Shown one piece after another: positions 1,397 to 23,133 of a stretch of DNA of 32,000 nucleotides (position 1 is its first letter; each line of letters begins with the position of its first letter). The DNA is from Desulfotalea psychrophila LSv54 (GTDB taxonomy: Bacteria > Desulfobacterota > Desulfobulbia > Desulfobulbales > Desulfocapsaceae): contig NC_006138.1 in the NCBI RefSeq assembly GCF_000025945.1, positions 2,340,001-2,372,000 on the forward strand, read 5' to 3'. The translations under genes were made by a program, and so were the position numbers. The notes under the pieces are model-generated. The model made no database searches and had not been told where the DNA came from. It saw nothing but the letters and a program-made list of their open reading frames with translations.

Positions 1397-1478
1397 ACAG
1401 ATTAAGTGTTTCAGTCAGATTTATATGTCTTTCAAACAGAACCAATCGTAGGGAACTCAACAACTAAGGGGATAGCAA

Positions 1479-8059: not shown

Positions 8060-8088
8060 CCCCGTGCACCGCGGCGCGGTGCACGGGG
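8060..8088 (-). terminator. GC-rich hairpin immediately 3' of giant gene A
   Basis: ccccgtgcaccgc-ggc-gcggtgcacgggg forms a 13-bp perfect stem 17 nt past the stop. No U-tract follows on the minus strand (a T-run precedes it on the plus strand), so it is not canonical. The element is conserved after copy B. Confidence 0.35.
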
Positions 8089-8104: not shown

Positions 8105-11100
8105 TCAGAACCGGAATTCGAGTTTCGCGGAACCGCCGTAATCGTAGCTGTTCGTCGACAAGGCGGTCTGGGCCCGTATTGACAGCGAAAGGTTGTCCTG
8201 TAGCTGCGCATCGAAGCCCACGGTTAAATCGCCCTGGCAACGGTCGGTGCCCATTGTGAAGTTCAGCTCTCCGAGCGAAGCATCCGCGTCCACCAGCGTC
8301 GAACTCGCGTCCATGCTCGGTTCGTTTAATACTACCGTGAGACCCGCTCGGATGAAGGCCAGCATGGAGTGGTCATTGACCGAGAAGGCCCGACCAAGCT
8401 CGATCATTGGGGTCATGGCGAGCCAGCCATCGCTGACCGACCCGACGTCCCAATTCAGGAGGCCGTTGCCGCTTTCGGTAAAACTGTTCTGCCAGACCTG
8501 TGTGTAGGCCAATGCGGCTGAGGGCTTGGTGTAGTAGCCACTTTGGCCTAAGAACACAGCCGATGCCCGGACCTCGGCTCCGAGGAAGCCTCCGTCTATG
8601 TCGGAATCGGCTTGTTGCCAAATCTGGGAGGACTTGTAGGCCCGATCGTAGTTGAGTGAATAGATCCCACCGGTCAGTGCTGTGGAGAGGGTGAATCTCC
8701 CGATCTCCTTCTTAAGAGCCAAGCCCAGCGAATAGCGCTTGCCATCCTGAGAAAAGTTGTCGCCGTCGATGGACAGCGTCTCGAATTGGCCCACTATCTC
8801 AATAAAGGTGTCGGCTGCGATCTCACGTTGCGAGCCGAGTGCGATACCCCAGGTGGTCTCGGAGAACTCAGGACTTTCTCCAGTGGCATTCTGGTTTAAA
8901 TGCGAGCCGATTGCCTGGACCCAGGCACAGTCGTTCTGGCGCAGGAAGTCGGTGCCGGTCGTCGGGTCGAGTGTCGGACAGCTCTGCATTAGCTGGTTTA
9001 GCCTGTGCGATGCCGAGACCGCTCTGGTCGCCCCGATCAGGCTCTCTTCCGGGGTATGGCTACCGTAGATTGCCGCTAGTTCGTCGGCACTGGTAGTGTT
9101 CAGAATCGTGGTCGCGTGCATGGATAAGGCTTCTTTCGTGTCGCCGCTCGCCGTGGCCTCAATTGCCGCCATGGCGCTGCTTAAATATCTGGCATAACTG
9201 AGCGCATTGTTCCCTAGTTCTATTCCCGCTGCGCTGCCAGTATAGTCGATCGTGTAATTGACGAAGATATCGCTGGTCTTGTTGCTGAGGGTGTAGGTGA
9301 CGGTCGGGGTGTTGACTAATGTCGCGGTCATTGTCTTGAGGTTAGCGTCATTCGTCAGCGAAACGATGTGCAGTACGCCGGTGTTGCCGCTGGAAAGGGT
9401 GGTGCTTCCAACCCAAACGGGTTGGATCACGCCGGTCAGGTTGATCTGCGCGCCCTGGGCAAGACCATCAAAAACGATCTGGTCATTTAATACAGTCCCA
9501 GTCGAGTTTTGTTGGACATCGATCCAGAGTGTCCCGGCCTCGGCGTAGGTTTCACCGAGGCTCACCGTGCTTGTGCCGACTATGTTCTGGCCATAGGGAG
9601 ACATGGTGCTGCCGTCATAGCCTGTGTAGTTACCGAGCTTGCCAAGATAGACGGTCTTGCCGGCGTGGAAGTACGCGCCCTGTAGGTTTTCGAACTCAGT
9701 CCGGTTAGAGTCGTCGAGTTGCAGCGAGCCCGCGAGGATGCCTCCGCTCAAATTGTGGATCCTGAGCGCACCCTGAAAATCGTTAGCAATGACCACTGAG
9801 TTCGCATCGGCGCTCTGGATCGTGCCCTCGTTCTGGATCATGTTGGAATAGCTGAGCGACCCGTCGGAATTATAGCTTGACCGCCCCCCTGAGATAACTA
9901 TCGTCTCGTAGGCCGAACTGTGCGTCGTTTCGACCAGCCCGCCCTTATTGACATAGATGTGACTGGTGCCCCGGCATTCGTCGTCTTTGCACTGGGCGGA
10001 ACCGCCGCCTTTGTCGCCCTGCGGATCGTCTGTGCCGGTTTCCGAGGATTGGGCGAGGATCGCACGGGCGTTCTCGCCCTCGGCTTTTACTGTGCCGGCG
10101 ATACGCATCTTGACCCCACCGGAGTAGCCATCGGTGCCCGAAGCGCTCTGCGCGAAGATCCCGTGCGAGCCGGTGCCCTTGACATTAATTAAGCCGTCAA
10201 TGGCTATGTCGACATAGCCACTGTTGCCGGCGTCTCCGGCGCTACCGATGCTTGCGCTGTCCGTGTCGCTTCCAAGATTGCCACCGGCACCGCCGCTACC
10301 GCCGACGGACTGCACCCAGATCCCGTGGGCGTTTTTATTTGCCGTGTGAATCTGGCCGGTACTCGTGATGTTAACATCGCCCCCGTCGCCACCCTGGCCA
10401 CCGTTGTCCTTACCGAAAATCTGGGCCCCCAGGGTTTCATAGAAATTGGCCACACCGGTTACGATGCTACTTTCGATATCACCAGCTGATCCACCGCCGC
10501 CACCGACCGATTGGGCATAAATACCCATGGCTCCAGAGCCTTCGGTACTGATGTTGCCGCTGTTGGTGACGGCCACATTACCGCCGTTGCCACCCCCAGA
10601 TCCCGACCGTGCGACGGTGATAGAAGTCAGAAGCCCCTGGCTCCCGTCGCCACCACTGCCGCCGCCACCGCCCACGGATTGCGCGAAGATCGCCGTGCCA
10701 CTGTCACCGGTTGTGCTCAGCGTGGCATCGTTCTCGACCGTGACGTTGCCGCCGGTGCCAGAGGCCCCAGCCTGGCCGCCGATATCGATTTCAAAGGAGA
10801 GTTCGTCTTTGGGGAAGCCCTTCACGCCCTTGTAGGTTTCATAGATGTCGTGCAAAAAATCAAAGGTTTTTTTGATATCTGCGACCCAGCCCTTAAGCCC
10901 GGGCGAGCCGTTACCGGAGTTGCCGCCACCACCGCCAACCGACTGGGCGTAGATCGCGTAGGAGGCGTTGCCGGCCGTCGATATCGTACCCTCGGAGTGG
11001 GTCACCGACACGTCGTTGCCGTCCCCCGAGGCGCCAGAGTTGCCGCCCATGGCGTATTTCAGAGAATAGCTTTTACCTTCGTCGGTCTTTTTCTGTTTAT

Positions 11101-14100
11101 TGGTGTAGCCAAAGGTATGGGACCCGGCTTGGCCGCCGTCGCCACCACCGCCGCCGACCGACTGGGCATAGATGCCATAGGAGGTCTCGGTCCGCGTGGA
11201 GATGTCTCCGTTGTTTTGCACAGTCACCGAGCCGGCATCCTCTCCGTTGCCGCCCGAACCGCCCAGCGCCACGTCTACGCTGAAGCTGGGGTTCTTGTTT
11301 TTGGGCGCCAAGTAAAAGTTGAGCGCGCTGGCGGAACCGTAGGCACCAACGCCGCCGTTGCCGCCGACTGACTGCGCGTAGATACCATGGGCGTTACCGC
11401 CCGATGTTTTGAGCGTGGCCTGATTCTCGACCGTCACAGAGCTACCAACCGACCCATTACCGCCGGAGCCGCCGATCGAAACGGTGGTCTGAAACGTCGG
11501 CCCGGAACTACCCGATACAGTGTAGGCATAGCTGCCGCCACCCTTGCCGCCGTTGCCGCCGATCGATTGCGCGAAGATCCCGTAGGACAGGTGTCCGTTC
11601 GTGGTGATATCGCCACCGCTGTTGTTGGTCACTGTGACCGCCTTCGCCGTGCCCGAGTCGCCGCCATCGCCGCCAACGGAGACGTTGACTGAACCGCCAC
11701 CCTCGGAGCTCAAATCGATCGCCGCTGCAATGATGGCACCGCCGTCGCCGCCGTTGCCGCCAATCGACTGGGCGGTAATCCCCGTGGATTGATAGCCGCC
11801 GGTGGTGATCTGGCCTGAATTGGTGATGTCGACCGTATCTGCAGTGCTACCCGCACCGCCGCTACCGCCAACGGAGACGTTGACCGAGGTTGAGATCAGC
11901 CCGGCGCTTCCGGCCCCGGTGCCCAAGAATCCACCTACGCCGCCGCTCCCGCCCAGGGACTGGGCAAAGACCCCGTGCGAGCTGTCGCCCGATGTGTTAA
12001 TATTTTTGGTGTTGGTCAGCGTCACCTTGCCGGCTGTGCCGCCGTCTCCGCCGTTTCCGCCGTGGGCGATGCTGAGATCGCCCATGATGCTAAATGAGCC
12101 TGAGGCCGTCACGCCCCCGGAGCCACCGCCTCCGCCCATACTCTGGGCCAGGATGCCGGTCGCACCTGAGCCAGCGGTGGTGACGGACGCGTTGTTGGTC
12201 AGCGTTATATCCGAGGCCATTCCGCCTAGACCGCCGTTGCCCCCGTGGGTATAGCCGAGGCTGATACCGGCATCGCCATTGACTGTGGTGCCGGATGTGC
12301 CACCACCGCCGGCCACGCTCTGGGCCATGACGCCGGTCGAGAGATGGCCGTGTGTCGTCACGCTGCCGGCGGTGGTCAGATCCACCGTTCCCGACGAGCC
12401 GCCCGTACCACCGGATGAGCCGAGCGCGATCGACCCGGAACTGATCGAGACGTCTCCGCCGAAGGTGTAACCCGCTTTGCCGCCACCGCCGCCGATGGAC
12501 TGGGCGACGACGCCAAGTGCATTGTCGCCCTTGGTCTCGACCGTACTGTCAGTTTGAACCCAGACCGCTCCGGCAGAGCCGGCAGTTCCTGCAGATGATC
12601 CCTGATTGCCAACGAACTGGCTGAATTCCCCTCCGACATTGGCGTCGATAACGTTGCTCGACTGGCCACCGCCGCCACCGATCGACTGCACCAGGATGCC
12701 GTCTGCGTGGTCGCCATCGGTCGTGGCATCGGTCTTGGAGTTTACCGTGACGTTGCCACCGGTCCCGCCGTACTGACCGTCCGCCCCCATGTCATGATTG
12801 AATTCAAGGGTGCTGCCTGCCTCGATGTTATTACCAGCCGAACCGCCGCCACCCCCGACCGACTGGACAAGGAGGGCCGAAGATGTGGCTCCGTGCGTGG
12901 TCACCGATCCGGTCAGGCCAACGGTATCCTTGGCGCCGACATTGACGGTTCCGCCGTGATGCGCTGTGATCGTGTTCGAGGCGGCGGTCTGTTGGTTGAA
13001 GGTCAGGCCGATGTCGACGTTGACCACGTTGCCGCCGGTGCCGCCGCCACCGCCGATGGACTGCGCGACGAAGCCGTTAGACTTGAAAGCGAAGGTTTCG
13101 ATGTCGACGCTGCCGCCTTCGCTGGTGACTGTGATGTCGCCGCCTGAACCGCCATCGCCGCCCTGGGAGCCGAGGATAGGCTTGATGATATCGAGGGCGG
13201 CAAGGGAGCTACCGCCATGGCCACCACCGCCGCCAATGGATGAAATCAGTACCCCGTCTGCGATTTTATCCTGCGTTGTGACCCCGAGCGTTCCACTCTT
13301 GAGATCAAAGGTCACATCGGAGCCACTGCCACCATCGCCACCTTTGGCTCCGAGGGCCCAGGGCCCTTTGGGCGAGGTCGACTTGCCGCCGCCGTCGCCG
13401 ATACTCGAGATCATCACACCAACAGCATATTCGCCCTCGGTCGTGATGGTGGTGTTGCCGTCGGCGGAGAAGGCGGCCTTGCCGCCATTGCCGCCTTTTC
13501 CTCCATCACCGCCAAGGGCGACCACGCCGTCGTTCCCGCCGCTGGTGCCGCCGCCTCCGCCAGCGCTCAGCACGAAGATTCCTGACGCGTCGTCGCCCTT
13601 GGTGGTGATGGTGTTGGTGTCCGTCAGCGTGACGGTGACGTTACCGCCCACGCCACCTGCACCTGCTTTGGCACCGATGGCGATAAAGCCGTCATCCTTC
13701 GAGCCGACACCGCCGCCACCGCCCACCGAGAGTGCGCTTAGTCCATTAGAATAGTTCCCTGTCGTATCCACAGACACGGCATTAAGGGTCGCCGTAACGG
13801 TACGGCCATCACCAGCACTCCCGCCGTTGGCGCCATAGCCGACAAAGCCGGTCGCGCCGCCGGCGTTACCAGCGAAACCGCCGACACTCTCCACGAGGAT
13901 GCCCCCGGCTTCATCGCCTTTCGTCCTAATGGTTCCATTCGCGTAGCTGACCGTGGCCTCGCCACCCGGTCCCGGCACGCTGGCAAAACCAGCGTTGCCG
14001 TCGACCCAGCTATCGGCGTTGCCACCGTTGCCGCTGGCGCCGCCGATACTCTGGATGAAGACGCCTTGCGCCTGGACGCCCGAGGTCGTGATGTCGCCGG

Positions 14101-15103
14101 CGAAAGTCACATCGATCTCTCCAGCAGTGCCGCCGGGGCCGCCATTGCCTCCAACCCCTTTGGTCGGTCCATGCCCTTCGCCGCCGGTCCCTCCGTCCCC
14201 AGCCTCGCTGATGGCAACGATGCCATGTATGGTATCACCCGAGGTCGAGATAGTGTTCGAACTGCTGGCAGCGGTGAGCGTGATAATCCCGCCGTTGCCG
14301 CCGGCACCACCGGTGCCGCCCGTGGCCTTGTTGTCCGAAAGCCCTTCCCCTGCGGTGCTCCCGTTTCCGCCGACGCTAACCAGGGCGATACCGGCGCTGG
14401 TGCTCGTGGTGATATCGACTGAATGCTGATCGTCGAGCGTCACGGTGATAGCGCCGCCATTGCCACCGGCACCGCCGTTGCCGCCGAAGCCCTGATGCAA
14501 CCCGCTCTGGTTGGTGCCCTTGCCGCCTTCGCCGCCCTGGCCACCCTGGCTGAGCACGATAAGACCTGGGCCGCCACTCGTGGTGATTGGGAAAGGGGTC
14601 ACCCCGCCGTTGTCAGCATTGGCTGTGATCGTCACGGCGCTGCCATTACCGCCGGCGCCGCCGATTCCGCCGCGGGCAGTACCAAATGCGCTGTTCTCGT
14701 TAGCCAACCCGCCGTTGCCGCCGTTGCCCTCGATCGAGATCCCGCCCGTGGCGCTGTCGATGCCAAAGCCCTTGTCGAAATGCATCATCAAGGACATATC
14801 GTACGAGCTGTAGGCATCCCCCCCGTCCTGGCCATCTTCATGCTTTTCTTTGGTCGCGTCGTTTCCCGGGCCCGCTTGGTCCGTAAACTTGAACGCATAG
14901 TTGTCGTCACTTGACAGGGAAGGCCCGAAATTACCTGTCACGTTTTCGTACAGGAAGTGGGTGGCAGTGCTTGACCCCACATCGAGGACCGGGATATCGC
15001 TGCCGGAGCAGGTATAGGTGCCATTATCATTGAGACATGATCCAATAGATAAAGTTGGCAACATAAAAATAGATACCATCGAAAAAATGTGCGTCATTCT
15101 CAT
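8105..15103 (-). CDS. Giant type Va autotransporter, copy A (2332 aa): signal peptide, glycine-rich repeat passenger, linker, C-terminal beta-barrel
   Basis: Uninterrupted 7-kb ORF. SD AAGGGG lies 5 nt before the ATG. N-terminus MRMTHIFSMVSIFMLPTLSIGSC. About 26 repeats carry an xAQS[IV]GGGGGxGG core. The last 276 aa (NDCAWVQAIGSH...YDYGGSAKLEFRF) show alternating-hydrophobic beta strands and the terminal aromatic Phe typical of autotransporter barrels. Confidence 0.9.
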   Translation of the reverse strand: MRMTHIFSMVSIFMLPTLSIGSCLNDNGTYTCSGSDIPVLDVGSSTATHFLYENVTGNFGPSLSSDDNYAFKFTDQAGPGNDATKEKHEDGQDGGDAYSSYDMSLMMHFDKGFGIDSATGGISIEGNGGNGGLANENSAFGTARGGIGGAGGNGSAVTITANADNGGVTPFPITTSGGPGLIVLSQGGQGGEGGKGTNQSGLHQGFGGNGGAGGNGGAITVTLDDQHSVDITTSTSAGIALVSVGGNGSTAGEGLSDNKATGGTGGAGGNGGIITLTAASSSNTISTSGDTIHGIVAISEAGDGGTGGEGHGPTKGVGGNGGPGGTAGEIDVTFAGDITTSGVQAQGVFIQSIGGASGNGGNADSWVDGNAGFASVPGPGGEATVSYANGTIRTKGDEAGGILVESVGGFAGNAGGATGFVGYGANGGSAGDGRTVTATLNAVSVDTTGNYSNGLSALSVGGGGGVGSKDDGFIAIGAKAGAGGVGGNVTVTLTDTNTITTKGDDASGIFVLSAGGGGGTSGGNDGVVALGGDGGKGGNGGKAAFSADGNTTITTEGEYAVGVMISSIGDGGGKSTSPKGPWALGAKGGDGGSGSDVTFDLKSGTLGVTTQDKIADGVLISSIGGGGGHGGSSLAALDIIKPILGSQGGDGGSGGDITVTSEGGSVDIETFAFKSNGFVAQSIGGGGGTGGNVVNVDIGLTFNQQTAASNTITAHHGGTVNVGAKDTVGLTGSVTTHGATSSALLVQSVGGGGGSAGNNIEAGSTLEFNHDMGADGQYGGTGGNVTVNSKTDATTDGDHADGILVQSIGGGGGQSSNVIDANVGGEFSQFVGNQGSSAGTAGSAGAVWVQTDSTVETKGDNALGVVAQSIGGGGGKAGYTFGGDVSISSGSIALGSSGGTGGSSGTVDLTTAGSVTTHGHLSTGVMAQSVAGGGGTSGTTVNGDAGISLGYTHGGNGGLGGMASDITLTNNASVTTAGSGATGILAQSMGGGGGSGGVTASGSFSIMGDLSIAHGGNGGDGGTAGKVTLTNTKNINTSGDSSHGVFAQSLGGSGGVGGFLGTGAGSAGLISTSVNVSVGGSGGAGSTADTVDITNSGQITTGGYQSTGITAQSIGGNGGDGGAIIAAAIDLSSEGGGSVNVSVGGDGGDSGTAKAVTVTNNSGGDITTNGHLSYGIFAQSIGGNGGKGGGSYAYTVSGSSGPTFQTTVSIGGSGGNGSVGSSVTVENQATLKTSGGNAHGIYAQSVGGNGGVGAYGSASALNFYLAPKNKNPSFSVDVALGGSGGNGEDAGSVTVQNNGDISTRTETSYGIYAQSVGGGGGDGGQAGSHTFGYTNKQKKTDEGKSYSLKYAMGGNSGASGDGNDVSVTHSEGTISTAGNASYAIYAQSVGGGGGNSGNGSPGLKGWVADIKKTFDFLHDIYETYKGVKGFPKDELSFEIDIGGQAGASGTGGNVTVENDATLSTTGDSGTAIFAQSVGGGGGSGGDGSQGLLTSITVARSGSGGGNGGNVAVTNSGNISTEGSGAMGIYAQSVGGGGGSAGDIESSIVTGVANFYETLGAQIFGKDNGGQGGDGGDVNITSTGQIHTANKNAHGIWVQSVGGSGGAGGNLGSDTDSASIGSAGDAGNSGYVDIAIDGLINVKGTGSHGIFAQSASGTDGYSGGVKMRIAGTVKAEGENARAILAQSSETGTDDPQGDKGGGSAQCKDDECRGTSHIYVNKGGLVETTHSSAYETIVISGGRSSYNSDGSLSYSNMIQNEGTIQSADANSVVIANDFQGALRIHNLSGGILAGSLQLDDSNRTEFENLQGAYFHAGKTVYLGKLGNYTGYDGSTMSPYGQNIVGTSTVSLGETYAEAGTLWIDVQQNSTGTVLNDQIVFDGLAQGAQINLTGVIQPVWVGSTTLSSGNTGVLHIVSLTNDANLKTMTATLVNTPTVTYTLSNKTSDIFVNYTIDYTGSAAGIELGNNALSYARYLSSAMAAIEATASGDTKEALSMHATTILNTTSADELAAIYGSHTPEESLIGATRAVSASHRLNQLMQSCPTLDPTTGTDFLRQNDCAWVQAIGSHLNQNATGESPEFSETTWGIALGSQREIAADTFIEIVGQFETLSIDGDNFSQDGKRYSLGLALKKEIGRFTLSTALTGGIYSLNYDRAYKSSQIWQQADSDIDGGFLGAEVRASAVFLGQSGYYTKPSAALAYTQVWQNSFTESGNGLLNWDVGSVSDGWLAMTPMIELGRAFSVNDHSMLAFIRAGLTVVLNEPSMDASSTLVDADASLGELNFTMGTDRCQGDLTVGFDAQLQDNLSLSIRAQTALSTNSYDYGGSAKLEFRF
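8108..8935 (-). other. Segment encoding the autotransporter beta-barrel translocator domain of copy A
   Basis: 276 C-terminal residues ending in EFRF. The preceding CPTLDPTTGTDFLRQNDC linker is followed by amphipathic strands (RYSLGLALKKEI, FTLSTALTGGIYSLNY, LTVGFDAQL, LSLSIRAQTAL). Confidence 0.8.
10040..14750 (-). repeat. Coding array of about 26 degenerate 58-95-aa glycine-rich passenger repeats (copy A)
   Basis: The recurring unit is G-x-V-T-V-x-N-x-G-x-I-x-T-x-G-x-x-S/A-x-G-I-x-A-Q-S-[IV]-G-G-G/N-G-G-x-G-G, then a variable insert, then V-x-V-x-x-G-G-x-G-G-x-G. Counted by eye: 14 AQS cores, 4 [IV]QS cores and about 8 degenerate cores. Boundaries are approximate. Confidence 0.8.
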
Positions 15104-15996: not shown

Positions 15997-16025
15997 CTCC
16001 GTGCACCGCGGCGCGGTGCACGGGG
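15997..16025 (-). terminator. GC-rich hairpin 3' of giant gene B (paralogue of 8060-8088)
   Basis: ctccgtgcaccgc-ggc-gcggtgcacgggg is the same element as after copy A. One outer pair is changed to a G.U wobble. Confidence 0.35.
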
Positions 16026-16041: not shown

Positions 16042-19000
16042 TCAGAACCGGAATTCGAGTTTCGCGGAACCGCCGTAATCGTAGCTGTTCGTCGACAAGG
16101 CGGTCTGGGCCCGTATTGACAGCGAAAGGTTGTCCTGTAGCTGCGCATCGAAGCCCACGGTTAAATCGCCCTGGCAACGGTCGGTGCCCATTGTGAAGTT
16201 CAGTTCTCCGAGCGAAGCATCCGCGTCCACCAGCGTCGAACTCGCGTCCATGCTCGGTTTGTTTAATACCACCGTGAGACCCGCCCGGATGAAGGCCAGC
16301 ATGGAGTGGTCATTGCCCGAGAAGGCCCGACCAAGCTCGATCATTGGGGTCATGGCGAGCCAGCCATCGCTGACCGACCCGACGTCCCAATTCAGGAGGC
16401 CGTTGCCGCTTTCGGTAAAACTGTCCTGCCAGACCTGTGTGTAGGCCAATGCGGCTGAGGGCTTGGCGTAGTAGCCACTTTGGCCTAAGAACACAGCCGA
16501 TGCCCGGACCTCGGCTCCGAGGAAGCCTCCGTCTATGTCGGAATTGGCTTGTTGCCAAATCTGGGAGGACTTGTAGGCCCGATCGTAGTTGAGTGAATAG
16601 ATCCCACCGGTCAGTGCTGTGGAGAGGGTGAACCTCCCGATCTCTTTCTTAAGAGCCAAGCCCAGCGAATAGCGCTCGCCATCCTGAGAAAAGTTGTCGC
16701 CGTCGATGGACAGCGTCTCGAATTGGCCCACTATCTCAATAAAGGTGTCGGCTGCGATCTCACGTTGCGAGCCGAGTGCGATACCCCAGGTGGTCTCGGA
16801 GAACTCAGGACTTTCTCCAGTGGCATTCTGGTTTAAATGCGAGCCGATTGCCTGGACCCAGGCACAGTCGTTCTGGCGCAGGAAGTCGGTGCCGGTCGTC
16901 GGGTCGAGTGTCGGACAGCTCTGCATTAGCTGGTTTAGCCTGTGCGATGCCGAGACCGCTCTGGTCGCCCCGATCAGGCTCTCTTCCGGGGTATGGCTAC
17001 CGTAGATTGCCGCTAGTTCGTCGGCACTGGTAGTGTTCAGAATCGTGGTCGCGTGCATGGATAAGGCTTCTTCCGTGTCGCCGCTCGCCGTGGCCTCAAT
17101 TGCCGCTAGTTTGTCGGCACTGGTAGTGTTTAGAATTGTGGTCGCGTGCATGGAGGCTTCTTCCGTGTTGCCGCTCGCCGTGGCCTCAATTGCCGCCATG
17201 GCGCTGCTTAAATATCTGGCATAACTGAGCGCATTGTTCCCTAGTTCTATTCCCGCTGCGCTGCCAGTATAGTCGATCGTGTAATTGACGAAGATATCGC
17301 TGGTCTTGTTGCTGAGGGTGTAGGTGACGGTCGGGGTGTTGACTAATGTCGCGGTCATTGTCTTGAGGTTAGCGTCATTCGTCAGCGAAACGATGTGCAG
17401 TACGCCGGTGTTGCCGCTGGAAAGGGTGGTGCTTCCAACCCAAACGGGTTGGATCACGCCGGTCAGGTTGATCTGCGCGCCCTGGGCAAGACCATCAAAA
17501 ACGATCTGGTCATTTAATACAGTCCCAGTCGAGTTTTGTTGGACATCGATCCAGAGTGTCCCGGCCTCGGCGTAGGTTTCACCGAGGCTCACCGTGCTTG
17601 TGCCGACTATGTTCTGGCCATAGGGCGACATGGTGCTGCCGTCGTAGCCTGTGTAGTTACCGAGCTTGCCAAGATAGACGGTCTTGCCGGCGTGGAAGTA
17701 CGCGGCCTGTAGGTTTTCGAACTCAGTCCGGTTGGAGTCGTCGAGTTGCAGCGAGCCCGAGAGGATGCCTCCGTTCCAATTGTGGATCCTGAGCGCCCCT
17801 TGAGAATCGTTAGCAATGACCACTGAGTCCGCGTTGGCGCTCTGGATTGTGCCCTCGTTCTGGATCATGTTGGAATAGCTGAGCGACCCGTCGGAATTAT
17901 AGTTTGACCGCCCCCCTGAGATAGCGATCGTCTCGTAGGCCGAACTGTTCGTCGTCTCGACCAGTCCGCCTTTATTGACATAGATGTGACTGGTGCCCCG
18001 GCATTCGGCGTCTTTGCACTGGGTGGAACCGCTGCTTTCGCTGCCCTGCGGATCGTCTGTGCCAATTTCCGAGGATTGGGCGAGGATCGCCCGGGCGTTC
18101 GCGCCCTCGGTTTTTACTGTGCCGGCGATACGCATCTTGACCCCACCGGAGTAGCCATCGGTGCCCGAAGCGCTCTGCGCGAAGATCCCGTGCGAGCCGG
18201 TGCCCTTGACATTAATCAAGCCGTCAATGGCTATGTCGACATAGCCACTGTTGCCGGCGTCTCCGGCGCTACCGATGCTTACGCTGTCCGTTTTGCTGCC
18301 AAGATTGCCACCGGCACCGCCGCTACCGCCGACGGACTGCACCCAGATCCCGTGGGCGTTTTCATTTGCCGTGTTAATCTGGCCGGTACTCGTGATGTTA
18401 ACATCGCCCCCGTCGCCACCCTGGCCACCGTTGTCCTTACCGAAAATCTGGGCCCCCATGGTTTCATAGAAATTGGCCACAGCGGTTACGATGCTACTTT
18501 CGATGTCACCGGCCGATCCACCGCCGCCACCGACCGATTGGGCATAAATACCCATGGCTCCGGAGCCTCCGGTACTGATATTGCCGCTGTTGGTGACGGC
18601 CACATTACCGCCGTTGCCGCCCCCAGATCCCGACCGTGCGACGGTGATAGAAGTCAGAAGCCCCTGACTCCCGTCGCCGCCACTGCCGCCGCCGCCGCCC
18701 ACGGATTGCGCGAAGATCGCCGTGCCGCTGTCGCCGGTTGTGGTCAGCGTGGCATCGTTTTCGACCGTGACGTTGCCGCCGGTGCCAGAGGCCCCAGCCT
18801 GGCCGCCGATGTCGATTTCAAAGGAGAGTTCGTCTTTGGGGAAGCCCTTCACGTCCTTGTAGGTGTCATAGAGGTCGTCCAGAAACTCGCCGGTATTCTT
18901 GATATCCGCGACCCAGCCCTTAAGCCCGGGCGAGCCGTTGCCGGAGTTGCCGCCACCACCGCCAACCGACTGGGCGTAGATCGCGTAGGAGGCGTTGCCG

Positions 19001-22000
19001 ACCGTCGAGATGGTGCCCGCCGAATGGGTTACCGACACGTCGTTGCCGTCACCAGAGACGCCTTGGTCGCCGCCCATGGTAAAGTTCAGAGAATAGCTTT
19101 TACCTTCGTCGGTCTTGGTCTGTTTCTTGGTGTAGCCAAAGGTATGGGACCCGGCTTGGCCGCCGTCCCCACCGCCGCCACCGACCGACTGGGCGTAGAT
19201 GCCGTAAGCGGTCTCGGTCTGCGTGGAGATGTCTCCGTTGTTTTGCACAGTTACCGAGCCGGCATCCTCCCCGCTGCCGCCTGAACCGCCCAGCGCCACG
19301 TTCGCGTTAACGTCGAGGTTATTGTCACCGGGCTTGTAGAAGAAGTCTCCCGCGAAGGCGAAGCCGTAGGCGCCGACGCCGCCGTTGCCGCCGACCGACT
19401 GCGCATAGATGCCATGGGAGTTGCCGCCCGATGTCTTGAGCGTGGCGTCATTCTCGACCGTCACAGAGCTGCCAACCGACCCGCTGCCGCCGTTGCCGCC
19501 GATCGAAACGGAGGCATCTACCGTCGGCCCGGTACTCCCCGACAGTGTGAAGGCGTAGCTGCCGCCACCCTTGCCGCCGTTGCCGCCGATCGATTGCGCG
19601 AAGATCCCGTAGGACAGATGTCCGGACGTTGTGATGTCGCCACCGCTGTTGTTGGTCACTGTGACCGCTTTCGCCGTGCCCGAGTCGCCGCCATCGCCGC
19701 CAACGGAGACGTTGACTGAACCACTACCGTCGGAGCTCAAATCGATCGCCCCTGCAATGATGGCACCGCCGTCGCCGCCGTTGCCGCCAACCGACTGGGC
19801 GGTAATCCCCGTGGAGTGATAGCCAGCGGTGGTGATTTGGCCCGAGTTGGTGATGTCGACCGTATCTGCAGTGCTACCCTTGCCGCCGCTACCGCCAACG
19901 GAGACGTTGACCGAGGCCGAGATCGGCCCGGCGCTTCCGGCTCCGGTACCCAGAAATCCGCCTACGCCGCCGCTCCCGCCCAGAGACTGGGCAAAGACCC
20001 CGTGCGAGCTGTCGCCCGACGTTTTAATATTTTCGGTGTTGGTCAGCGTCACCTTGCCGGCTGTGCCGCCGTTGCCGCCGTCTCCGCCGTGGGCGATGTT
20101 GAGATCACCCACGATGCCAAATGACGCTGAGGCCGTCACGCCCCCGGAGCCACCGCCCCCGCCCATACTCTGGGCCAGGACGCCGGTCGCACCCGAGCCA
20201 GCGGTGGTGACGGACGCGTTATTGATCAGCGTTATATCCGAGGCCATTCCGCCTAGACCGCCGTTGCCCCCATGGGTATAGCTGAGGCTGATACCGGCAT
20301 TGCCATTGACTGTGGTGCCAGCCGTGCCACCACCGCCGGCCACACTCTGGGCCATGACGCCGGTCGAGAGATTGCCGGATGTCGTCACGCTACCGGCGGT
20401 GGTCAGCTCCACCGTTCCCGACGAGCCGCCCGCACCACCGGATGAGCCGAGGCTGATACCGGCATTGATCGAGACGTCTCCGTCGACGGTATAACCCGCT
20501 TTGCCGCCACCGCCGCCGATGGACTGGGCGACGACGCCAAGTGCATTGTCGCCCTTGGTCTCGACCGTGCTGTCAGTTTGGACCCAGACCGCTCCGGCAG
20601 AGCCGGCAGTTCCCGCAGATGAACCCTGATTGCCAATGAACTGGCTGATTTCCCCGCCGACATTGGCATCGATAACGTTGCTCGACTGGCCACCGCCGCC
20701 ACCAATCGATTGCACCAGGATGCCGTCTGCGTGGTCGCCATCGGTCGTGGCATCGGTCTTGGAGTTTACCGTGACGTCGCCACCGGTCCCGCCGTCCTGA
20801 CCGCCCGCCCCCATGTCATGATTGAATTCAAGGGTGCTGCCTGCCTCGATGCTATTACCAGCCGAACCGCCGCCACCCCCGACCGACTGGACAAGGAGGG
20901 CCGAAGATGTAGCTCCGTGCGTGGTTACCGATCCGGTCAGGCCAACGGTATCCTTGTTGCCGACGTTGACGGTTCCACCGTGATGCGCTGCGGTCGTGGC
21001 CAAGGCGGCGGTCTGTTGGTTGAAGGTCAGGCCGATGTCGACGTTGACCACGTTGCCGCCGGTGCCGCCGCCACCGCCGATGGACTGCGCGACGAAGCCA
21101 TTAGACTTGAAACCGGAGGTTTCGATGTCGACGCTGCCGCCTTCGCTGGTGACCGTGATGTCGCCGCCTGAACCGCCATCGCCGCCCTGGGAGCCGAGGA
21201 CAGGCTTGATGATATCGAGGGCGGCAAGGGAGCTACCGCCATGGCCACCACCGCCGCCAACGGATGAAATCAGTACCCCGTCTGCGATGCTACCCTGCGT
21301 TGTGACCCCGAGCGTTCCACTCTTGAGATCAAAGGTCACGTCGGAGCCACTGCCGCCATCTCCACCGTTGGCTCCGAGGGCCCAGGGCCCTGTGGGCGAG
21401 GTCGACTTGCCGCCGCCGTTGCCGATACTCGAGATCATCACACCAACAGCATATTCGCCCTCGGTCGTGATGGTGGTGTTGCCGTCGGCGGAGAAGGTGG
21501 CAACATCACCATTGCCGCCTTTCCCTCCAGCACCGCCAAGGGCGACCACGCCTTCGTTCCCGCCGCTGGTGCCGCCGCCTCCGCCAGCGCTCAGCACGAA
21601 GATTCCTGACGCGTCGTCGCCCTTGGTAGTGATGGTGTTGGTGTCCGTCAGCGTGACGGTGACGTTACCGCCCGCGCCACCTGCACCACCTGCGGCACCG
21701 ATGGTGACAAAGCCATCGTCTTTCGAACCGACACCGCCGCCACCGCCCACCGAGAGTGCGCTTAGTCCAATAGAAGAGTTCCCTGTCGTAGCCACAGACA
21801 CGGCATTAAGGGTTGTCGTAACGGTATTGCCATCACCACCACTCGCGCCGTTGGCGCCATAGCCGACAAAGCCGCTCGCGCCGCCGGAGCTACCGGCGAA
21901 ACCGCCGACACTCTCCACGAGGATGGCCGAGGCTTCATCGCCTTTCGTGGTAATAGTTCCATTCGCGTAGCTGATCGTCGCCTCGCCACCCGGTCCCGGC

Positions 22001-23133
22001 ACGCTGGCAAGACCAGAGTCGCTGTCGAACCAGCTATCGCCTTTGCCGCCACTGCCGCTGGCGCCGCCGATACTCTGGATAAAGACGCCTTGCGCCTGGG
22101 CGCCCGAGGTCGTGATGTCGCCGGCGAAAGTCACATTGATCTCTCCAGCAGTGCCGCCGTGTCCGCCAACGCCTCCAACCCCTTCGGCCGTCCCATCCCC
22201 TTCGCCGCCGGTCCCTCCGTCCCCAGCCTCGCTGATAGCAACGATGCCATGTCCCGCATCGCCCGAGGTCGAGATTGCGTTCGAACTGCTGTCAGCGGTG
22301 AGCTCTACAATCCCGCCGTTGCCACCGGCACCACCAGTGCCGCCCGTAGCCTTGTTCGACGAAACCCCTTCACCCGCGGTGTTGCCGTTGCCGGCGACGC
22401 TAACCAGGGCGATACCGCTGCTGGCGCTCGTGGCGATGTCGACTGAATGCTGATCGTCGAGCCTCACGGTGATATCGCCGCCATTGCCACCGGCACCGCC
22501 GTTGCCGCCATTACCCTGATGAACCCCGCCGCTATGGTTGTGGCCCTCGCCGCCTTCGCCGCCGTTACCACCCCGGCTGAGCACGATAATACCTGGGCCG
22601 TTCTTCGCGGTGATTGGGAAAGGGGGCACCCCGCCGTTGTCAGCATTGGCTGTGATCGTCACGACGCTGCCATTACCACCGGCGCCGCCGACCCCGCCAT
22701 AGGCGGTGGTGGAGTATTTCTTGTCCTCATTGGCGTTGCCACCGATGCCGCCGTTGCCTTCGATCGAGATCCCGCCCGTGGCGCTGTCGATGCCAAAGCC
22801 CTTGTCGAAATGCATCATCAAGGACATATCGTACGAACTGTAGCCCTCCCCCCCCGGCTGACCATTCATATGCTTTCCGTCGGTCGCGTCGGTCCCCGGG
22901 CCCGCTTGGTCCGTAAACTTGAACGCATAGTCGCCGTCACTTGACAGGGAAGGCCCGAAATTACCCGTTACGTTTTCGTACAGGAAGTGGGTGGCAGTGC
23001 TTGACCCGACATTGAGGACCGGGATATCGCTGCCGGAGCAGGTATAGGTGCCATTATCATTGAGACATGACCCAATAGATAAAGTTGGCAACATAAAAAT
23101 AGATACCATCGAAAAAATGTGCGTCATTCTCAT
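16042..23133 (-). CDS. Giant type Va autotransporter, copy B (2363 aa), paralogue of copy A
   Basis: Uninterrupted ORF, collinear with copy A. The signal peptide is identical, the barrel differs at 6 of 276 aa, and the passenger is visibly diverged. The SD is weaker (AAGGAA). Confidence 0.9.
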   Translation of the reverse strand: MRMTHIFSMVSIFMLPTLSIGSCLNDNGTYTCSGSDIPVLNVGSSTATHFLYENVTGNFGPSLSSDGDYAFKFTDQAGPGTDATDGKHMNGQPGGEGYSSYDMSLMMHFDKGFGIDSATGGISIEGNGGIGGNANEDKKYSTTAYGGVGGAGGNGSVVTITANADNGGVPPFPITAKNGPGIIVLSRGGNGGEGGEGHNHSGGVHQGNGGNGGAGGNGGDITVRLDDQHSVDIATSASSGIALVSVAGNGNTAGEGVSSNKATGGTGGAGGNGGIVELTADSSSNAISTSGDAGHGIVAISEAGDGGTGGEGDGTAEGVGGVGGHGGTAGEINVTFAGDITTSGAQAQGVFIQSIGGASGSGGKGDSWFDSDSGLASVPGPGGEATISYANGTITTKGDEASAILVESVGGFAGSSGGASGFVGYGANGASGGDGNTVTTTLNAVSVATTGNSSIGLSALSVGGGGGVGSKDDGFVTIGAAGGAGGAGGNVTVTLTDTNTITTKGDDASGIFVLSAGGGGGTSGGNEGVVALGGAGGKGGNGDVATFSADGNTTITTEGEYAVGVMISSIGNGGGKSTSPTGPWALGANGGDGGSGSDVTFDLKSGTLGVTTQGSIADGVLISSVGGGGGHGGSSLAALDIIKPVLGSQGGDGGSGGDITVTSEGGSVDIETSGFKSNGFVAQSIGGGGGTGGNVVNVDIGLTFNQQTAALATTAAHHGGTVNVGNKDTVGLTGSVTTHGATSSALLVQSVGGGGGSAGNSIEAGSTLEFNHDMGAGGQDGGTGGDVTVNSKTDATTDGDHADGILVQSIGGGGGQSSNVIDANVGGEISQFIGNQGSSAGTAGSAGAVWVQTDSTVETKGDNALGVVAQSIGGGGGKAGYTVDGDVSINAGISLGSSGGAGGSSGTVELTTAGSVTTSGNLSTGVMAQSVAGGGGTAGTTVNGNAGISLSYTHGGNGGLGGMASDITLINNASVTTAGSGATGVLAQSMGGGGGSGGVTASASFGIVGDLNIAHGGDGGNGGTAGKVTLTNTENIKTSGDSSHGVFAQSLGGSGGVGGFLGTGAGSAGPISASVNVSVGGSGGKGSTADTVDITNSGQITTAGYHSTGITAQSVGGNGGDGGAIIAGAIDLSSDGSGSVNVSVGGDGGDSGTAKAVTVTNNSGGDITTSGHLSYGIFAQSIGGNGGKGGGSYAFTLSGSTGPTVDASVSIGGNGGSGSVGSSVTVENDATLKTSGGNSHGIYAQSVGGNGGVGAYGFAFAGDFFYKPGDNNLDVNANVALGGSGGSGEDAGSVTVQNNGDISTQTETAYGIYAQSVGGGGGDGGQAGSHTFGYTKKQTKTDEGKSYSLNFTMGGDQGVSGDGNDVSVTHSAGTISTVGNASYAIYAQSVGGGGGNSGNGSPGLKGWVADIKNTGEFLDDLYDTYKDVKGFPKDELSFEIDIGGQAGASGTGGNVTVENDATLTTTGDSGTAIFAQSVGGGGGSGGDGSQGLLTSITVARSGSGGGNGGNVAVTNSGNISTGGSGAMGIYAQSVGGGGGSAGDIESSIVTAVANFYETMGAQIFGKDNGGQGGDGGDVNITSTGQINTANENAHGIWVQSVGGSGGAGGNLGSKTDSVSIGSAGDAGNSGYVDIAIDGLINVKGTGSHGIFAQSASGTDGYSGGVKMRIAGTVKTEGANARAILAQSSEIGTDDPQGSESSGSTQCKDAECRGTSHIYVNKGGLVETTNSSAYETIAISGGRSNYNSDGSLSYSNMIQNEGTIQSANADSVVIANDSQGALRIHNWNGGILSGSLQLDDSNRTEFENLQAAYFHAGKTVYLGKLGNYTGYDGSTMSPYGQNIVGTSTVSLGETYAEAGTLWIDVQQNSTGTVLNDQIVFDGLAQGAQINLTGVIQPVWVGSTTLSSGNTGVLHIVSLTNDANLKTMTATLVNTPTVTYTLSNKTSDIFVNYTIDYTGSAAGIELGNNALSYARYLSSAMAAIEATASGNTEEASMHATTILNTTSADKLAAIEATASGDTEEALSMHATTILNTTSADELAAIYGSHTPEESLIGATRAVSASHRLNQLMQSCPTLDPTTGTDFLRQNDCAWVQAIGSHLNQNATGESPEFSETTWGIALGSQREIAADTFIEIVGQFETLSIDGDNFSQDGERYSLGLALKKEIGRFTLSTALTGGIYSLNYDRAYKSSQIWQQANSDIDGGFLGAEVRASAVFLGQSGYYAKPSAALAYTQVWQDSFTESGNGLLNWDVGSVSDGWLAMTPMIELGRAFSGNDHSMLAFIRAGLTVVLNKPSMDASSTLVDADASLGELNFTMGTDRCQGDLTVGFDAQLQDNLSLSIRAQTALSTNSYDYGGSAKLEFRF
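16045..16872 (-). other. Segment encoding the autotransporter beta-barrel translocator domain of copy B
   Basis: Same 276-aa C-terminal domain as copy A with six substitutions (K/E, D/N, T/A, N/D, V/G, E/K). Confidence 0.8.
17006..17188 (-). repeat. In-frame tandem duplication (93 nt + 90 nt) in the pre-barrel linker of copy B only
   Basis: Unit 1 (17006-17098) and unit 2 (17099-17188) both begin attgccgctagtt and end gccgtggcctca. They encode AAIEATASGNTEEASMHATTILNTTSADKL and AAIEATASGDTEEALSMHATTILNTTSADEL. Copy A has a single unit. Confidence 0.85.
18067..22780 (-). repeat. Coding array of glycine-rich passenger repeats (copy B)
   Basis: Collinear with the copy A array and has the same xAQS[IV]GGGGGxGG cores. 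Boundaries are approximate. Confidence 0.8.

What the first reader, a model, noticed from the sequence alone, without database searches (positions are those of the whole stretch)
10040..14750. Passenger built from about 26 units around an AQS[IV]GGGGGxGG core; repeat family not recognised
Each unit of 58-95 aa reads roughly G-x-VTVxN-x-G-x-ITT-x-G-xxSxG-I-x-AQS[IV]GG(G/N)GGxGG, then a variable insert of 10-45 aa, then VxVxxGGxGGxG. By eye there are 14 AQS cores, 4 [IV]QS cores and about 8 degenerate cores. The short beta-strand-like segments (VTVTN, ITT, GIxAQS) separated by poly-Gly turns suggest a beta-solenoid with unusually glycine-rich corners and variable surface loops. It is not the RTX nonapeptide, the PATR repeat, the Chlamydia Pmp GGA[ILV]/FxxN repeat or a collagen repeat as I know them. 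The same array is present in copy B (18067-22780).
Basis: partly seen in the sequence, partly recalled or inferred. Interest (0 to 1): 0.65.

Follow-up and report, generated by a model that had tools for sequence, protein, structure and literature searches.

The report
Glycine-rich repeat rod on an autotransporter
Two neighbouring genes each encode a giant self-exporting surface protein whose exposed part is 26 copies of a glycine-rich repeat that no database has described; the repeat is shared by thousands of uncharacterised bacterial proteins and is predicted to form an unusual rigid rod with no counterpart among solved structures.

Summary
ORF A (8105-15103, minus strand, 2332 aa) and its tandem paralog B (16042-23133, 2363 aa) are classical type Va autotransporters: signal peptide, long passenger, C-terminal PF03797 barrel (E=5e-26). 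A unit HMM finds 26 units in each passenger (up to 66 bits in A; composition-matched shuffles peak at 4.9 bits). Each unit has four short beta-strands and two (GGX)n segments, with variable inserts between units. The unit matches no Pfam, NCBIfam or PDB family. RTX, PATR, Pmp, collagen and IcsA glycine-rich repeats were tested and excluded. The family is large (3260 clusters at 50% identity with E<=1e-3, 24-112 units in the listed proteins) and almost always ends in an autotransporter barrel. Orthologs are collinear, so the array is old with a fixed copy number. AlphaFold2 models are confident (pLDDT 81-87, cores 93-99) and all-beta, yet have no Foldseek match in the PDB at E<=1e-3. Weak structural hits, weak Obg-domain sequence hits and coupling analysis suggest the two glycine segments are ordered polyproline-II-type elements that pack together, not simple corners. 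Function is unknown; a rigid surface fibre or adhesin is most likely. It is a new variant of a known kind and moderately interesting.

The parts
8105..15103 (-). Gene A: 2332-aa type Va autotransporter (full ORF, ATG start, AAGGGG Shine-Dalgarno-like motif upstream)
   Evidence: ORF list and translation. Orthologs align over the full length, with 42-63% identity across aa 20-331. An in-frame stop lies 4 codons upstream of the ATG.
14690..15103 (-). A aa 1-138: signal peptide (MRMTHIFSMVSIFMLPTLSIG|SC), a conserved Cys23-x8-Cys32-[ST]-G loop (15008-15037) and a non-repeat N-terminal cap
   Evidence: By inspection and ortholog alignment, both Cys are conserved in 48/53 sequences. The residue before the first Cys is often D, H or N in orthologs, so this is not a lipobox.
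10046..14689 (-). A aa 139-1686: array of 26 Gly-rich units (strand b1, (GGX)4 segment P1, strands b2/b3/b4 ending in AQS, GGGGGxGGx segment P2, then a variable insert)
   Evidence: Unit HMM hits, shuffle control, AF2 models of aa 1003-1640 and aa 880-1135, coupling analysis.
10784..10909 (-). Conserved long insert in the unit at aa ~1399-1440 (GSPGLKGWVADIKKTFDFLHDIYETYKGVKGFPKD), predicted amphipathic helix
   Evidence: Helix H404-422 in model 1, at low pLDDT. The insert consensus PGLxGWxADxYxxxE...ExYExxK is conserved across 51 aligned sequences.
9224..10045 (-). A aa 1687-1960: non-repeat, beta-rich C-terminal part of the passenger (position of an autochaperone-like region; no family match)
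   Evidence: No Pfam or NCBIfam hit. Conserved in orthologs.
8108..9223 (-). A aa 1961-2332: linker with conserved Cys2042/Cys2059 pair (8927-8980) and the autotransporter beta-barrel (PF03797, aa 2060-2311 = 8171-8926), ending in ...KLEFRF
   Evidence: PF03797 E=5e-26; TIGR01414 E=2.3e-7. Cys pair conserved in 52/53 sequences.
16042..23133 (-). Gene B: 2363-aa tandem paralog of A (about 90% aa identity), same architecture
18073..22710 (-). B aa 142-1687: the same array of 26 units
   Evidence: Unit HMM finds 26 units scoring at least 10 bits.
17104..17193 (-). B-specific 30-aa tandem duplication in the pre-barrel linker (AIEATASGNTEEASMHATTILNTTSADKLA)
8060..8088 (-). 29-nt GC-rich palindrome just downstream of gene A (an identical element lies at 15997-16025 downstream of B); part of the duplicated segment
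   Evidence: RNA fold of -35.2 kcal/mol. No T-run follows, and the terminator scan did not call it.

Best explanation
Genes A and B each encode a classical (type Va) autotransporter. A signal peptide takes the protein across the inner membrane, and the C-terminal 12-strand barrel inserts in the outer membrane. The ~1950-residue passenger is threaded out and folds on the cell surface (inferred from the family mechanism). The passenger is an array of 26 ancient, individually conserved units with a period of 52-88 aa. Each unit supplies four short beta-strands: xSVxVx[VLI], VTVTN, ITT and GIxAQS. V22/V24 and I40/A42 appear to form a hydrophobic core. Each unit also has two glycine segments of strict GGX periodicity, P1 (GGxGGxGGxGGx) and P2 (GGGGGxGGx). 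The units are predicted to stack into one long, rigid, repetitive rod. In it the P1 and P2 segments are ordered and pack against each other, most likely as polyproline-II/polyglycine-II-type helices forming a glycine layer beside the beta-sheets. The variable inserts between units form surface loops. The most likely role is a surface fibre or adhesin whose specificity lies in the inserts and the N-terminal cap; the ligand is unknown. Shown here: gene structure, barrel, repeat statistics, family size, collinearity, confident all-beta prediction, and no match to any known family or fold. Inferred: solenoid stacking, PPII geometry, secretion and function.
For: Autotransporter: PF03797 E=5e-26 and TIGR01414 E=2.3e-7 on the C-terminal 382 aa. 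A signal peptide and A-x-A-type cleavage context are conserved in orthologs. In a sample of 262 family members, 233 end in the same barrel exactly at the C-terminus.

Repeat: 26 units in each protein, up to 66 bits in A against a shuffle maximum of 4.9 bits.

Fixed, ancient array: the 10-unit fragment of 638 aa spans 631-698 aa in nearly all of 51 orthologs down to about 40% identity. There is no DNA-level unit repeat.

Ordered fold: AF2 pLDDT 81.3 with pTM 0.80 (10 units) and pLDDT 87.4 with pTM 0.78 (4 units). Cores are at 93-99 and only the inserts are low.

Gly segments ordered but non-beta: the 12-residue and 9-residue DSSP coil segments fall in blocks at pLDDT 89-98.

PPII pointers: there are 38 runs of (GGX)>=2 and 19 of (GGX)>=3 in A. 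Family-wide Gly frequencies follow a period of 3. GGX repeated at least twice is the published PPII-bundle signature (PMC13243192). The springtail PPII-bundle antifreeze 7jjv is among the top Foldseek hits for both models, with TM 0.31-0.37 on the target, and collagen-like proteins lead the viral library. The only PDB, Pfam or NCBIfam sequence resemblance of the unit is the Gly-rich N-terminal domain of Obg GTPases, which is sub-threshold.

AlphaFold-independent support: direct-coupling analysis of 6215 units puts V22/V24-I40/A42 and P1-P2 pairs (11-47, 19-46, 11-52, 13-52, 10-49) at the top, z=3.5-6.3.
Against: All structural and sequence similarities to PPII proteins are below significance (Foldseek E>=0.025; Obg E>=0.023). 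Couplings between Gly positions could be inflated by heterogeneity between canonical and degenerate units. AF2 confidence on repeats with a 51-sequence ortholog alignment may be optimistic. That the matching Obg segment is PPII rests on my own knowledge of the Obg fold and was not tested here. No experimental or genomic-context evidence bears on function: neighbouring genes are unrelated and not conserved. The literature search was incomplete because the tool failed repeatedly.
Confidence: 0.6

Rival explanations
1. This is an ordinary pertactin-like right-handed three-sided beta-helix passenger, in which the glycine runs are merely unusually long turns or corners. It is nothing structurally new, only a divergent sequence family.
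For: The context is an autotransporter. The DSSP pattern is all-beta. Most weak Foldseek hits are beta-helices: Fap2, Vag8, pertactin, PL6 lyases, tailspikes, pectate lyases.
Against: None of the solved autotransporter beta-helices in the PDB is matched at E<=1e-3; probabilities are <=0.05 and TM <=0.2. Ordered non-beta segments of 12 and 9 residues per unit are far longer than normal beta-helix turns. Their strict GGX periodicity and the P1-P2 couplings are not expected for corners.
Confidence: 0.25
2. The glycine segments are flexible, intrinsically disordered linkers, and the AlphaFold confidence is an artefact. The passenger would then be a floppy chain of small beta modules.
For: The passenger is 27% glycine, and glycine-rich sequences are often disordered. 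The inserts are predicted with low confidence.
Against: Gly positions and segment lengths are nearly invariant across 51 orthologs and about 10,000 units. pLDDT is 89-98 on these segments. The two segments co-vary with specific partners. The family-wide minimal period is sharply peaked at 52, 61 and 65 aa.
Confidence: 0.07
3. It is a calcium-binding roll analogous to RTX repeats. The Gly-rich turns with D or N at the X positions would bind Ca2+ and drive folding outside the cell.
For: X positions of the GGX triplets are enriched in D, N and S. Extracellular folding driven by Ca2+ is the RTX precedent (PMC3034196, listed).
Against: There are zero RTX nonapeptide motifs and no hit to the RTX Pfam family even at E<=10. 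No acidic position is strongly conserved: D/N at position 18 totals only 43%, and D at position 35 is 29%. The periodicity is 3 rather than 9. Export is by an autotransporter barrel, not type I secretion.
Confidence: 0.05

Closest known systems
Classical (type Va) autotransporters with long repetitive beta-helical passengers (pertactin, Ag43, Vag8, Fap2)
   Same: The overall architecture is the same: signal peptide, very long repetitive beta-rich passenger and C-terminal PF03797 barrel. The presumed export mechanism and probable rod-like surface fibre or adhesin role are also shared. These proteins are among the weak Foldseek hits.
   Different: The repeat unit (52-88 aa, two (GGX)n segments, AQS core) matches none of their repeat families, including PATR and AC_1. 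The predicted fold does not superpose significantly on any of them. Glycine content of 27% is far higher.
Glycine-rich repeats (GRRs) of Shigella IcsA/VirG
   Same: Both are Gly-rich tandem repeats in a type Va passenger. They share a motif theme: GGNGGDAITGxxLxVINxGxI in IcsA against GGxGGxGGxAGxVTVTNxGxI here.
   Different: IcsA has 6 repeats of 25-37 aa (mostly about 34 aa) with one strand motif each and no AQS-GGGGG core. The unit HMM scores at most 3.4 bits per repeat and -43.6 bits for the whole sequence. Profile-profile probability is 2.3% over 18 columns. Homology is therefore not demonstrable.
Glycine-rich polyproline-II helical bundle domains (snow-flea and springtail antifreeze proteins, Obg N-terminal domain, phage S16 gp38, ALK Gly-rich domain, mycobacterial PGRS domains)
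   Same: Both have consecutive GGX triplets with small or polar X. The segments are ordered but neither helix nor strand. Weak structural hits go to springtail AFP 7jjv and weak sequence hits to Obg. The glycine segments appear to pack on each other.
   Different: Here each pair of GGX segments is embedded in a unit with four beta-strands and repeated 26-112 times as an autotransporter passenger. The known PPII bundles are small stand-alone domains or, for PGRS, nearly pure Gly/Ala repeats. No significant homology to any of them was found.
RTX nonapeptide beta-roll
   Same: Both are Gly-rich extracellular repeats that must stay unfolded until exported.
   Different: No GGxGxDxUx motif is present (0 occurrences). 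The period and secretion route differ, and there is no conserved Asp.

Membership tests
Type Va (classical) autotransporter | C-terminal autotransporter beta-barrel translocator domain | tested here: met
   PF03797 E=5e-26, profile positions 1-254 of 255, on aa 2060-2311. TIGR01414 E=2.3e-7. The full-length search missed it, probably because of HMMER's composition-bias filter.
Type Va (classical) autotransporter | N-terminal Sec signal peptide on the same polypeptide as passenger and barrel | tested here: met
   By inspection only, since no predictor was available. The N-terminus has a basic n-region, a hydrophobic core and an SIG|S cleavage context. Orthologs carry signal peptides ending in A-x-A.
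Type Va (classical) autotransporter | Recognisable autochaperone (AC_1, PF18883) at the passenger C-terminus | tested here: not met
   No Pfam or NCBIfam hit for aa 1641-1960. The region is conserved and probably beta-rich, but it was not modelled.
Type Va (classical) autotransporter | Surface exposure or secretion of the passenger dependent on the barrel | not testable with these tools
   Requires experiment.
Pertactin-like right-handed beta-helix passenger | Structural superposition on solved autotransporter beta-helices | tested here: not met
   Foldseek against the PDB gave no hit at E<=1e-3 for either model. Fap2 scored 1.4e-2, Vag8 9.7e-2, pertactin 0.59-3.0, Ag43 4.1 and EspP 8.0, with probability <=0.05.
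Pertactin-like right-handed beta-helix passenger | PATR repeat (PF12951/TIGR02601) | tested here: not met
   No hit at E<=10 for a single unit, a 4-unit fragment or 16 units scanned singly.
RTX repeat proteins | Tandem nonapeptide GGxGxDxUx (PF00353) | tested here: not met
   0 motif matches in A and B. No Pfam hit.
Chlamydial Pmp repeats | Alternating GGA[ILV] and FxxN tetrapeptides (PF02415/TIGR01376) | tested here: not met
   1-2 GGA[ILV] and 3-5 FxxN in about 2350 aa, which is chance level. No family hit.
T5SS/PEP-CTERM-associated repeat (TIGR04393) | Match to the NCBIfam/TIGRFAM repeat model | tested here: not met
   No hit at E<=10. One family member (P0232) does end in a PEP-CTERM-like tail.
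IcsA/VirG glycine-rich repeats | Sequence homology of the repeat unit | tested here: not met
   Unit HMM best domain 3.4 bits. hhalign probability 2.3%.
[quoted passage not shown] | Runs of at least two consecutive GGX triplets | tested here: met
   38 runs of (GGX)>=2 and 19 of (GGX)>=3 in A. Period-3 Gly frequencies appear over positions 10-21 and 46-54 in 9968 units. The criterion is taken from PMC13243192.
[quoted passage not shown] | PPII backbone geometry and direct helix-helix packing of the Gly segments | tested here: inconclusive
Indirect evidence: DSSP coil at pLDDT 89-98, weak Foldseek hits to 7jjv, and P1-P2 couplings at z up to 6.1.
[quoted passage not shown] | Homology to a known member (Obg N-terminal domain, PF01018) | tested here: not met
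   Only sub-threshold hits: PDB E=0.12; PF01018 best E=4.8 in 3/16 units; NF008954 best E=0.023 in 3/16 units.

The most novel reading that the evidence does not exclude
The passenger is a previously undescribed fold class: a hybrid solenoid in which beta-sheets are stacked together with a continuous layer of polyglycine-II/PPII helices. It would be repeated 26-112 times and exported by the type V pathway. The flat, regularly spaced GGX face, which in springtail antifreeze proteins is the functional ice-binding surface, could itself be the functional surface for binding ice, mineral or polysaccharide lattices. The near-absence of bulky side chains may also help keep the roughly 2000-residue passenger unfolded in the periplasm.
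Probability: 0.35. Interest if true: 0.75.

Novelty: new variant of a known kind. Interest (0 to 1): 0.5.

Why it matters
[quoted passage not shown] This window contains a large, phylogenetically broad family: at least 1300-3300 clusters at 50% identity, in Alpha-, Beta- and Gammaproteobacteria, Chlorobium, Verrucomicrobia and, in this window, a probable Desulfobacter-like sulfate reducer. These giant autotransporters have a passenger repeat with no Pfam or NCBIfam model, no name and no solved structural counterpart. Standard pipelines even miss their barrel, because composition-bias filtering removes the hit. If the predicted beta/PPII hybrid architecture is real, it would be a different structural solution for building a long surface rod. 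It would also extend the short list of glycine-rich PPII-bundle proteins into a large bacterial family and offer a tractable repeat scaffold for studying PPII packing. Practically, a profile HMM for this unit would annotate thousands of 'hypothetical' giant proteins. It would also correct gene models such as the two here, which are truncated by about 330 residues in public databases.

Tried and rejected
- **Full-length domain searches:** Pfam and NCBIfam returned nothing, probably because HMMER's bias filter removed the hits. Splitting the protein recovered the barrel.
- **Plasmid search:** tblastn of the 10-unit fragment against plasmids found no match.
- **Exact-sequence contig look-ups:** nothing was on record for a window protein or for P0001.
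- **Genome-contig scan:** only three Stappia loci came back and the source genome was not found.
- **Unit-profile search in the word-indexed protein database:** it returned only short fragments and no informative names.
- **Lipoprotein autotransporter idea:** this came from LSIGSC. I rejected it because orthologs have D, H or N before the Cys and an A-x-A cleavage context.
- **IcsA GRR homology:** rejected.
- **Strong diversifying selection between the paralogs:** not supported, since dN/dS is 0.38-0.75.
- **Conserved operon partner:** none. The neighbours are lactate-utilisation and other housekeeping genes here, and a two-component system in Thiohalocapsa.
- **DNA-level variable-number repeat:** rejected, since TRF finds no unit-period array.
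- **RNA genes in the window:** none.
- **PDB sequence search with the C-terminal 644 aa:** no hit.
- **Literature:** three searches and two autotransporter surveys found no description of this repeat. Six further paper-tool calls failed, so absence from the literature is not established.
Full report
**1. What is there**

The window holds two large minus-strand ORFs in tandem: A (8105-15103, 2332 aa) and B (16042-23133, 2363 aa). The finding's coordinates (10040-14750) correspond to aa 118-1688 of A. This stretch is 26.9% glycine, against 10.6% in the remainder of the protein.

Whole-protein scans against Pfam and NCBIfam returned nothing. That is probably an artefact of HMMER's composition-bias filter. 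The C-terminal 382 aa alone match the autotransporter beta-domain PF03797 at E=5e-26 over the full profile, and TIGR01414 at E=2.3e-7.

The N-terminus is a plausible signal peptide. In orthologs it ends in A-x-A and is followed by a conserved Cys-x7-10-Cys-[ST]-G loop, present in 48 of 53 sequences. A and B are therefore classical type Va autotransporters, and the finding is their passenger.

**2.

- A 54-position HMM built from 16 units finds 26 tandem units tiling aa 139-1686 of A, scoring up to 66 bits. It also finds 26 units in B.
- Fifty composition-matched shuffles of the passenger never exceed 4.9 bits.
- Core-to-core spacing is 54-88 aa in A.
- At the DNA level TRF finds no unit-period repeat, so the repeat is visible only in the protein.

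**3. The repeat is a large, old and unnamed family**

Searching A against 5.8 billion proteins gave more than 2100 significant hits among the 8000 candidates scored. They are annotated only as 'autotransporter outer membrane beta-barrel domain-containing protein' or 'hypothetical protein', with almost no precomputed Pfam domain.

Named sources include:
- Thiohalocapsa/Chromatiaceae (closest named, 64-66% identity), Microbulbifer and Allopusillimonas;
- many marine Alphaproteobacteria (Stappia, Labrenzia/Roseibium, Marinibacterium, Chachezhania, Sneathiella, Maricaulis, Mesorhizobium, Labrys, Rhizomicrobium);
- Luteolibacter (Verrucomicrobia) and Chlorobium.

A profile of the 54-residue unit, searched exhaustively against 1.84 billion cluster representatives, found 3260 proteins at E<=1e-3, 2241 at E<=1e-10 and 1338 at E<=1e-30. 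The listed proteins carry 24-112 matched units and reach 7216 aa.

Of 262 retrieved members, 233 end in the same barrel type exactly at the C-terminus. Most of the others end in a typical aromatic beta-signal. One has a PEP-CTERM-like tail.

The 51 closest relatives are collinear with A. The 638-aa, 10-unit fragment spans 631-698 aa in nearly all of them, down to about 40% identity. Units within A are only 31-58% identical to one another. The array is therefore ancient with a fixed copy number, and each unit has its own orthologs. It is not a fast-evolving variable-number repeat.

From 9968 units the family consensus is [ST]xS[VL]SVx[VLI]-GGxGGxGG[DN][GA]Gx-VTVT[NS]xGxIxTxGDx[SA]x[GA]I[LF]AQS[IV]-GGGGGxGGx. 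The period peaks at 52, 61 and 65 aa. The most conserved non-Gly residues are S44 (97%), T32 (87%), Q43 (83%) and V22 (83%).

**4. It matches no known repeat family**

- One unit, a 4-unit fragment and 16 units scanned singly gave no hit to any passenger repeat family in Pfam or NCBIfam, even at E<=10. That covers PATR, Pmp, RTX, AC_1 and TIGR04393.
- Neither the 4-unit fragment nor the unit profile found any significant PDB sequence match.
- Motif counts are 0 for RTX nonapeptides, 0 for collagen runs and chance level for Pmp tetrapeptides.
- I fetched icsA from Shigella plasmid pCP301 to test the only characterised Gly-rich autotransporter repeat I know of. Its GRRs share a motif theme, but the unit HMM scores at most 3.4 bits and hhalign gives 2.3% probability.
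- Two autotransporter surveys do not mention glycine at all. The literature check is otherwise incomplete because the search tool failed repeatedly.

**5. Predicted structure**

AlphaFold2 was run with the 51-sequence ortholog alignment.

| Fragment | Units | Mean pLDDT | pTM |
|---|---|---|---|
| aa 1003-1640 | 10 | 81.3 | 0.80 |
| aa 880-1135 | 4 | 87.4 | 0.78 |

Repeat cores are at 93-99, and confidence drops only in the inter-unit inserts. One of these is a conserved amphipathic helix at aa ~1405-1424.

DSSP gives the following pattern per unit:
- strand b1;
- a 12-residue non-strand segment P1, the (GGX)4 stretch;
- strands b2/b3 (VTVTN..ITT);
- strand b4 (GIxAQS);
- a 9-residue non-strand segment P2 (GGGGGxGGx);
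- an insert, often a hairpin.

P1 and P2 are modelled with high confidence even though they are neither strand nor helix.

Foldseek found no PDB or viral-library match at E<=1e-3 for either model. The weak hits fall into two groups. One is beta-solenoids: Fap2, Vag8, pertactin, the FapC amyloid, pectate and alginate lyases, and tailspikes. The other is PPII proteins: the springtail antifreeze 7jjv (TM 0.31-0.37 on the target) and collagen-like proteins.

The many solved autotransporter beta-helices are not matched significantly. I therefore infer that this is not a canonical pertactin-type helix.

**6. Nature of the glycine segments**

Four lines of evidence suggest that P1 and P2 are ordered polyproline-II/polyglycine-II-type elements packing on one another, rather than 'corners'.

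- Their strict GGX periodicity is conserved over about 10,000 units. This is the published sequence signature of Gly-rich PPII bundles (PMC13243192).
- They have high pLDDT without beta or alpha assignment.
- There are weak structural hits to a PPII bundle. The only recurrent sequence resemblance, in three independent libraries, is the Gly-rich N-terminal domain of Obg GTPases. All of these are sub-threshold. That the matching Obg segment forms type-II helices comes from my own knowledge of the Obg fold.
- A mean-field direct-coupling analysis of 6215 unique units is independent of AlphaFold. Its top long-range couplings are V22/V24 with I40/A42 (a b2-b4 hydrophobic core) and P1-P2 pairs (11-47, 19-46, 11-52, 13-52, 10-49), at z=3.5-6.3.

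Two caveats apply. I could not read coordinates, so the geometry is unverified. Heterogeneity among units may inflate the Gly-Gly couplings.

**7. Mechanism and function**

*Inferred from the type Va family:* Sec export, BAM-assisted barrel insertion, then C-to-N threading of the passenger and vectorial folding on the surface. Folding would be seeded by the non-repeat region at aa 1687-1960.

*Inferred from the model:* the 26 units stack into a rigid rod. The variable inserts and the disulfide-looped N-terminal cap are the likely specificity determinants.

*Function:* context gives no clue. The neighbours are lactate permease, an FAD/Fe-S oxidase, an HD-domain sensor, a CitMHS permease and an adenosine deaminase. 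The Thiohalocapsa ortholog has different neighbours. I commit to a surface fibre or adhesin as the most likely role, with modest confidence.

**8. Genome-level observations**

- A and B are a tandem duplication reaching from about 40 nt upstream of the start codon to about 150 nt beyond the stop.
- An IS6 transposase remnant lies between them (NF033587, E=2.4e-12).
- Passenger dS is 0.1-0.3, but dS is about 0-0.04 from codon ~1800 to the end. This indicates recent gene conversion of the 3' part. dN/dS is 0.38-0.75.
- GC3 of both genes is 0.72, against 0.34-0.52 in every neighbour.
- The neighbours' >=90% identity clusters come from Desulfobacter, Desulforhopalus and Thermodesulfobacteriota. 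The autotransporter's closest relatives are in high-GC Chromatiaceae and Alphaproteobacteria. Together these point to horizontal acquisition.
- Public gene models of both proteins start at an internal GTG and lack the first 331-333 residues.

**9. Verdict**

The finding is real, accurately described and not an artefact. It is a member of a known system, the type Va autotransporter. It carries a previously undescribed, widespread passenger repeat with a confidently predicted fold that has no solved counterpart, probably a beta/PPII hybrid. I class it as a new variant of a known kind. Interest is moderate (0.5) and would be higher if the hybrid architecture were confirmed.

Noticed in passing
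window 15240-15443 (-): A remnant of an IS6-family transposase lies between the two autotransporter copies. It has the N-terminal ~40 aa (NF033587, E=2.4e-12) joined to a short tail that, from my memory of IS26, resembles the transposase C-terminus. It may mark how the segment was acquired or duplicated.
   Followed up: partly
window 8105-15103 and 16042-23133 vs neighbours: GC3 of both autotransporter genes is 0.72, in both the passenger and the C-terminal part including the barrel. All flanking genes have GC3 of 0.34-0.52. Gly codon use also differs (GGC 58% vs 32%). The neighbours' 90% clusters are from Desulfobacter, Desulforhopalus and Thermodesulfobacteriota, while the closest autotransporter relatives are Chromatiaceae and Alphaproteobacteria. 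This suggests cross-phylum horizontal transfer.
   Followed up: partly
window 8105-~9700 and 16042-~17640: The paralogs are a mosaic. Passenger dS is 0.1-0.3, but the last ~530 codons (late passenger, linker, barrel) have dS of about 0-0.04. This indicates recent gene conversion of the 3' end. dN/dS is 0.38-0.75 throughout.
   Followed up: yes
window 17104-17193 (-): Copy B has a 30-aa tandem duplication in the pre-barrel linker (AIEATASG..TTILNTTSAD.LA) that copy A lacks.
   Followed up: partly
window 8060-8088 and 15997-16025: A near-identical 29-nt GC-rich palindrome (CCCCGTGCACCGCGCCGCGGTGCACGGGG; the surrounding fold is -35 kcal/mol) lies 17-45 nt downstream of each stop codon. No T-run follows, so the terminator scan did not call it. 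It may be an atypical terminator or a REP-like element.
   Followed up: partly
window 14111-15103 and 22132-23133: Public database gene models of both proteins (2001 and 2030 aa) start at an internal GTG (aa 332/334). They omit the signal peptide and the first few repeat units. The longer ORFs are supported by 42-63% ortholog identity over aa 20-331.
   Followed up: yes
window 15008-15037 and 8927-8980 (gene A): Two conserved cysteine pairs are present. Cys23/Cys32 (48/53 orthologs) lies just after the signal peptide. Cys2042/Cys2059 (52/53) lies immediately before the barrel. Both are probably small disulfide loops compatible with autotransporter secretion.
   Followed up: partly
family members P0232, P0120, P0139, P0192: A few proteins carrying the same repeat lack the barrel. 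P0232 ends in a PEP-CTERM-like tail (PEPGSAVLLAIATITIAVTCRRR). Three others end in a shared ...[FY]YR[IV]R...[DN] motif of unknown type. The repeat is therefore occasionally attached to other anchoring or sorting signals.
   Followed up: no
window ~2600-3780: This ~1.2-kb stretch has a higher GC (about 0.50) than its surroundings and only implausible overlapping ORFs. It has no Rfam match even at E<=0.1, no tRNA and no notable repeats. Its nature is unexplained.
   Followed up: partly
whole proteins A and B: Standard hmmscan of the full-length proteins misses even the strong PF03797 barrel (E=5e-26 when the C-terminus is scanned alone). The glycine-rich passenger probably triggers the bias filter. 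This likely explains why almost all 120 listed relatives have no precomputed Pfam domain.
   Followed up: yes
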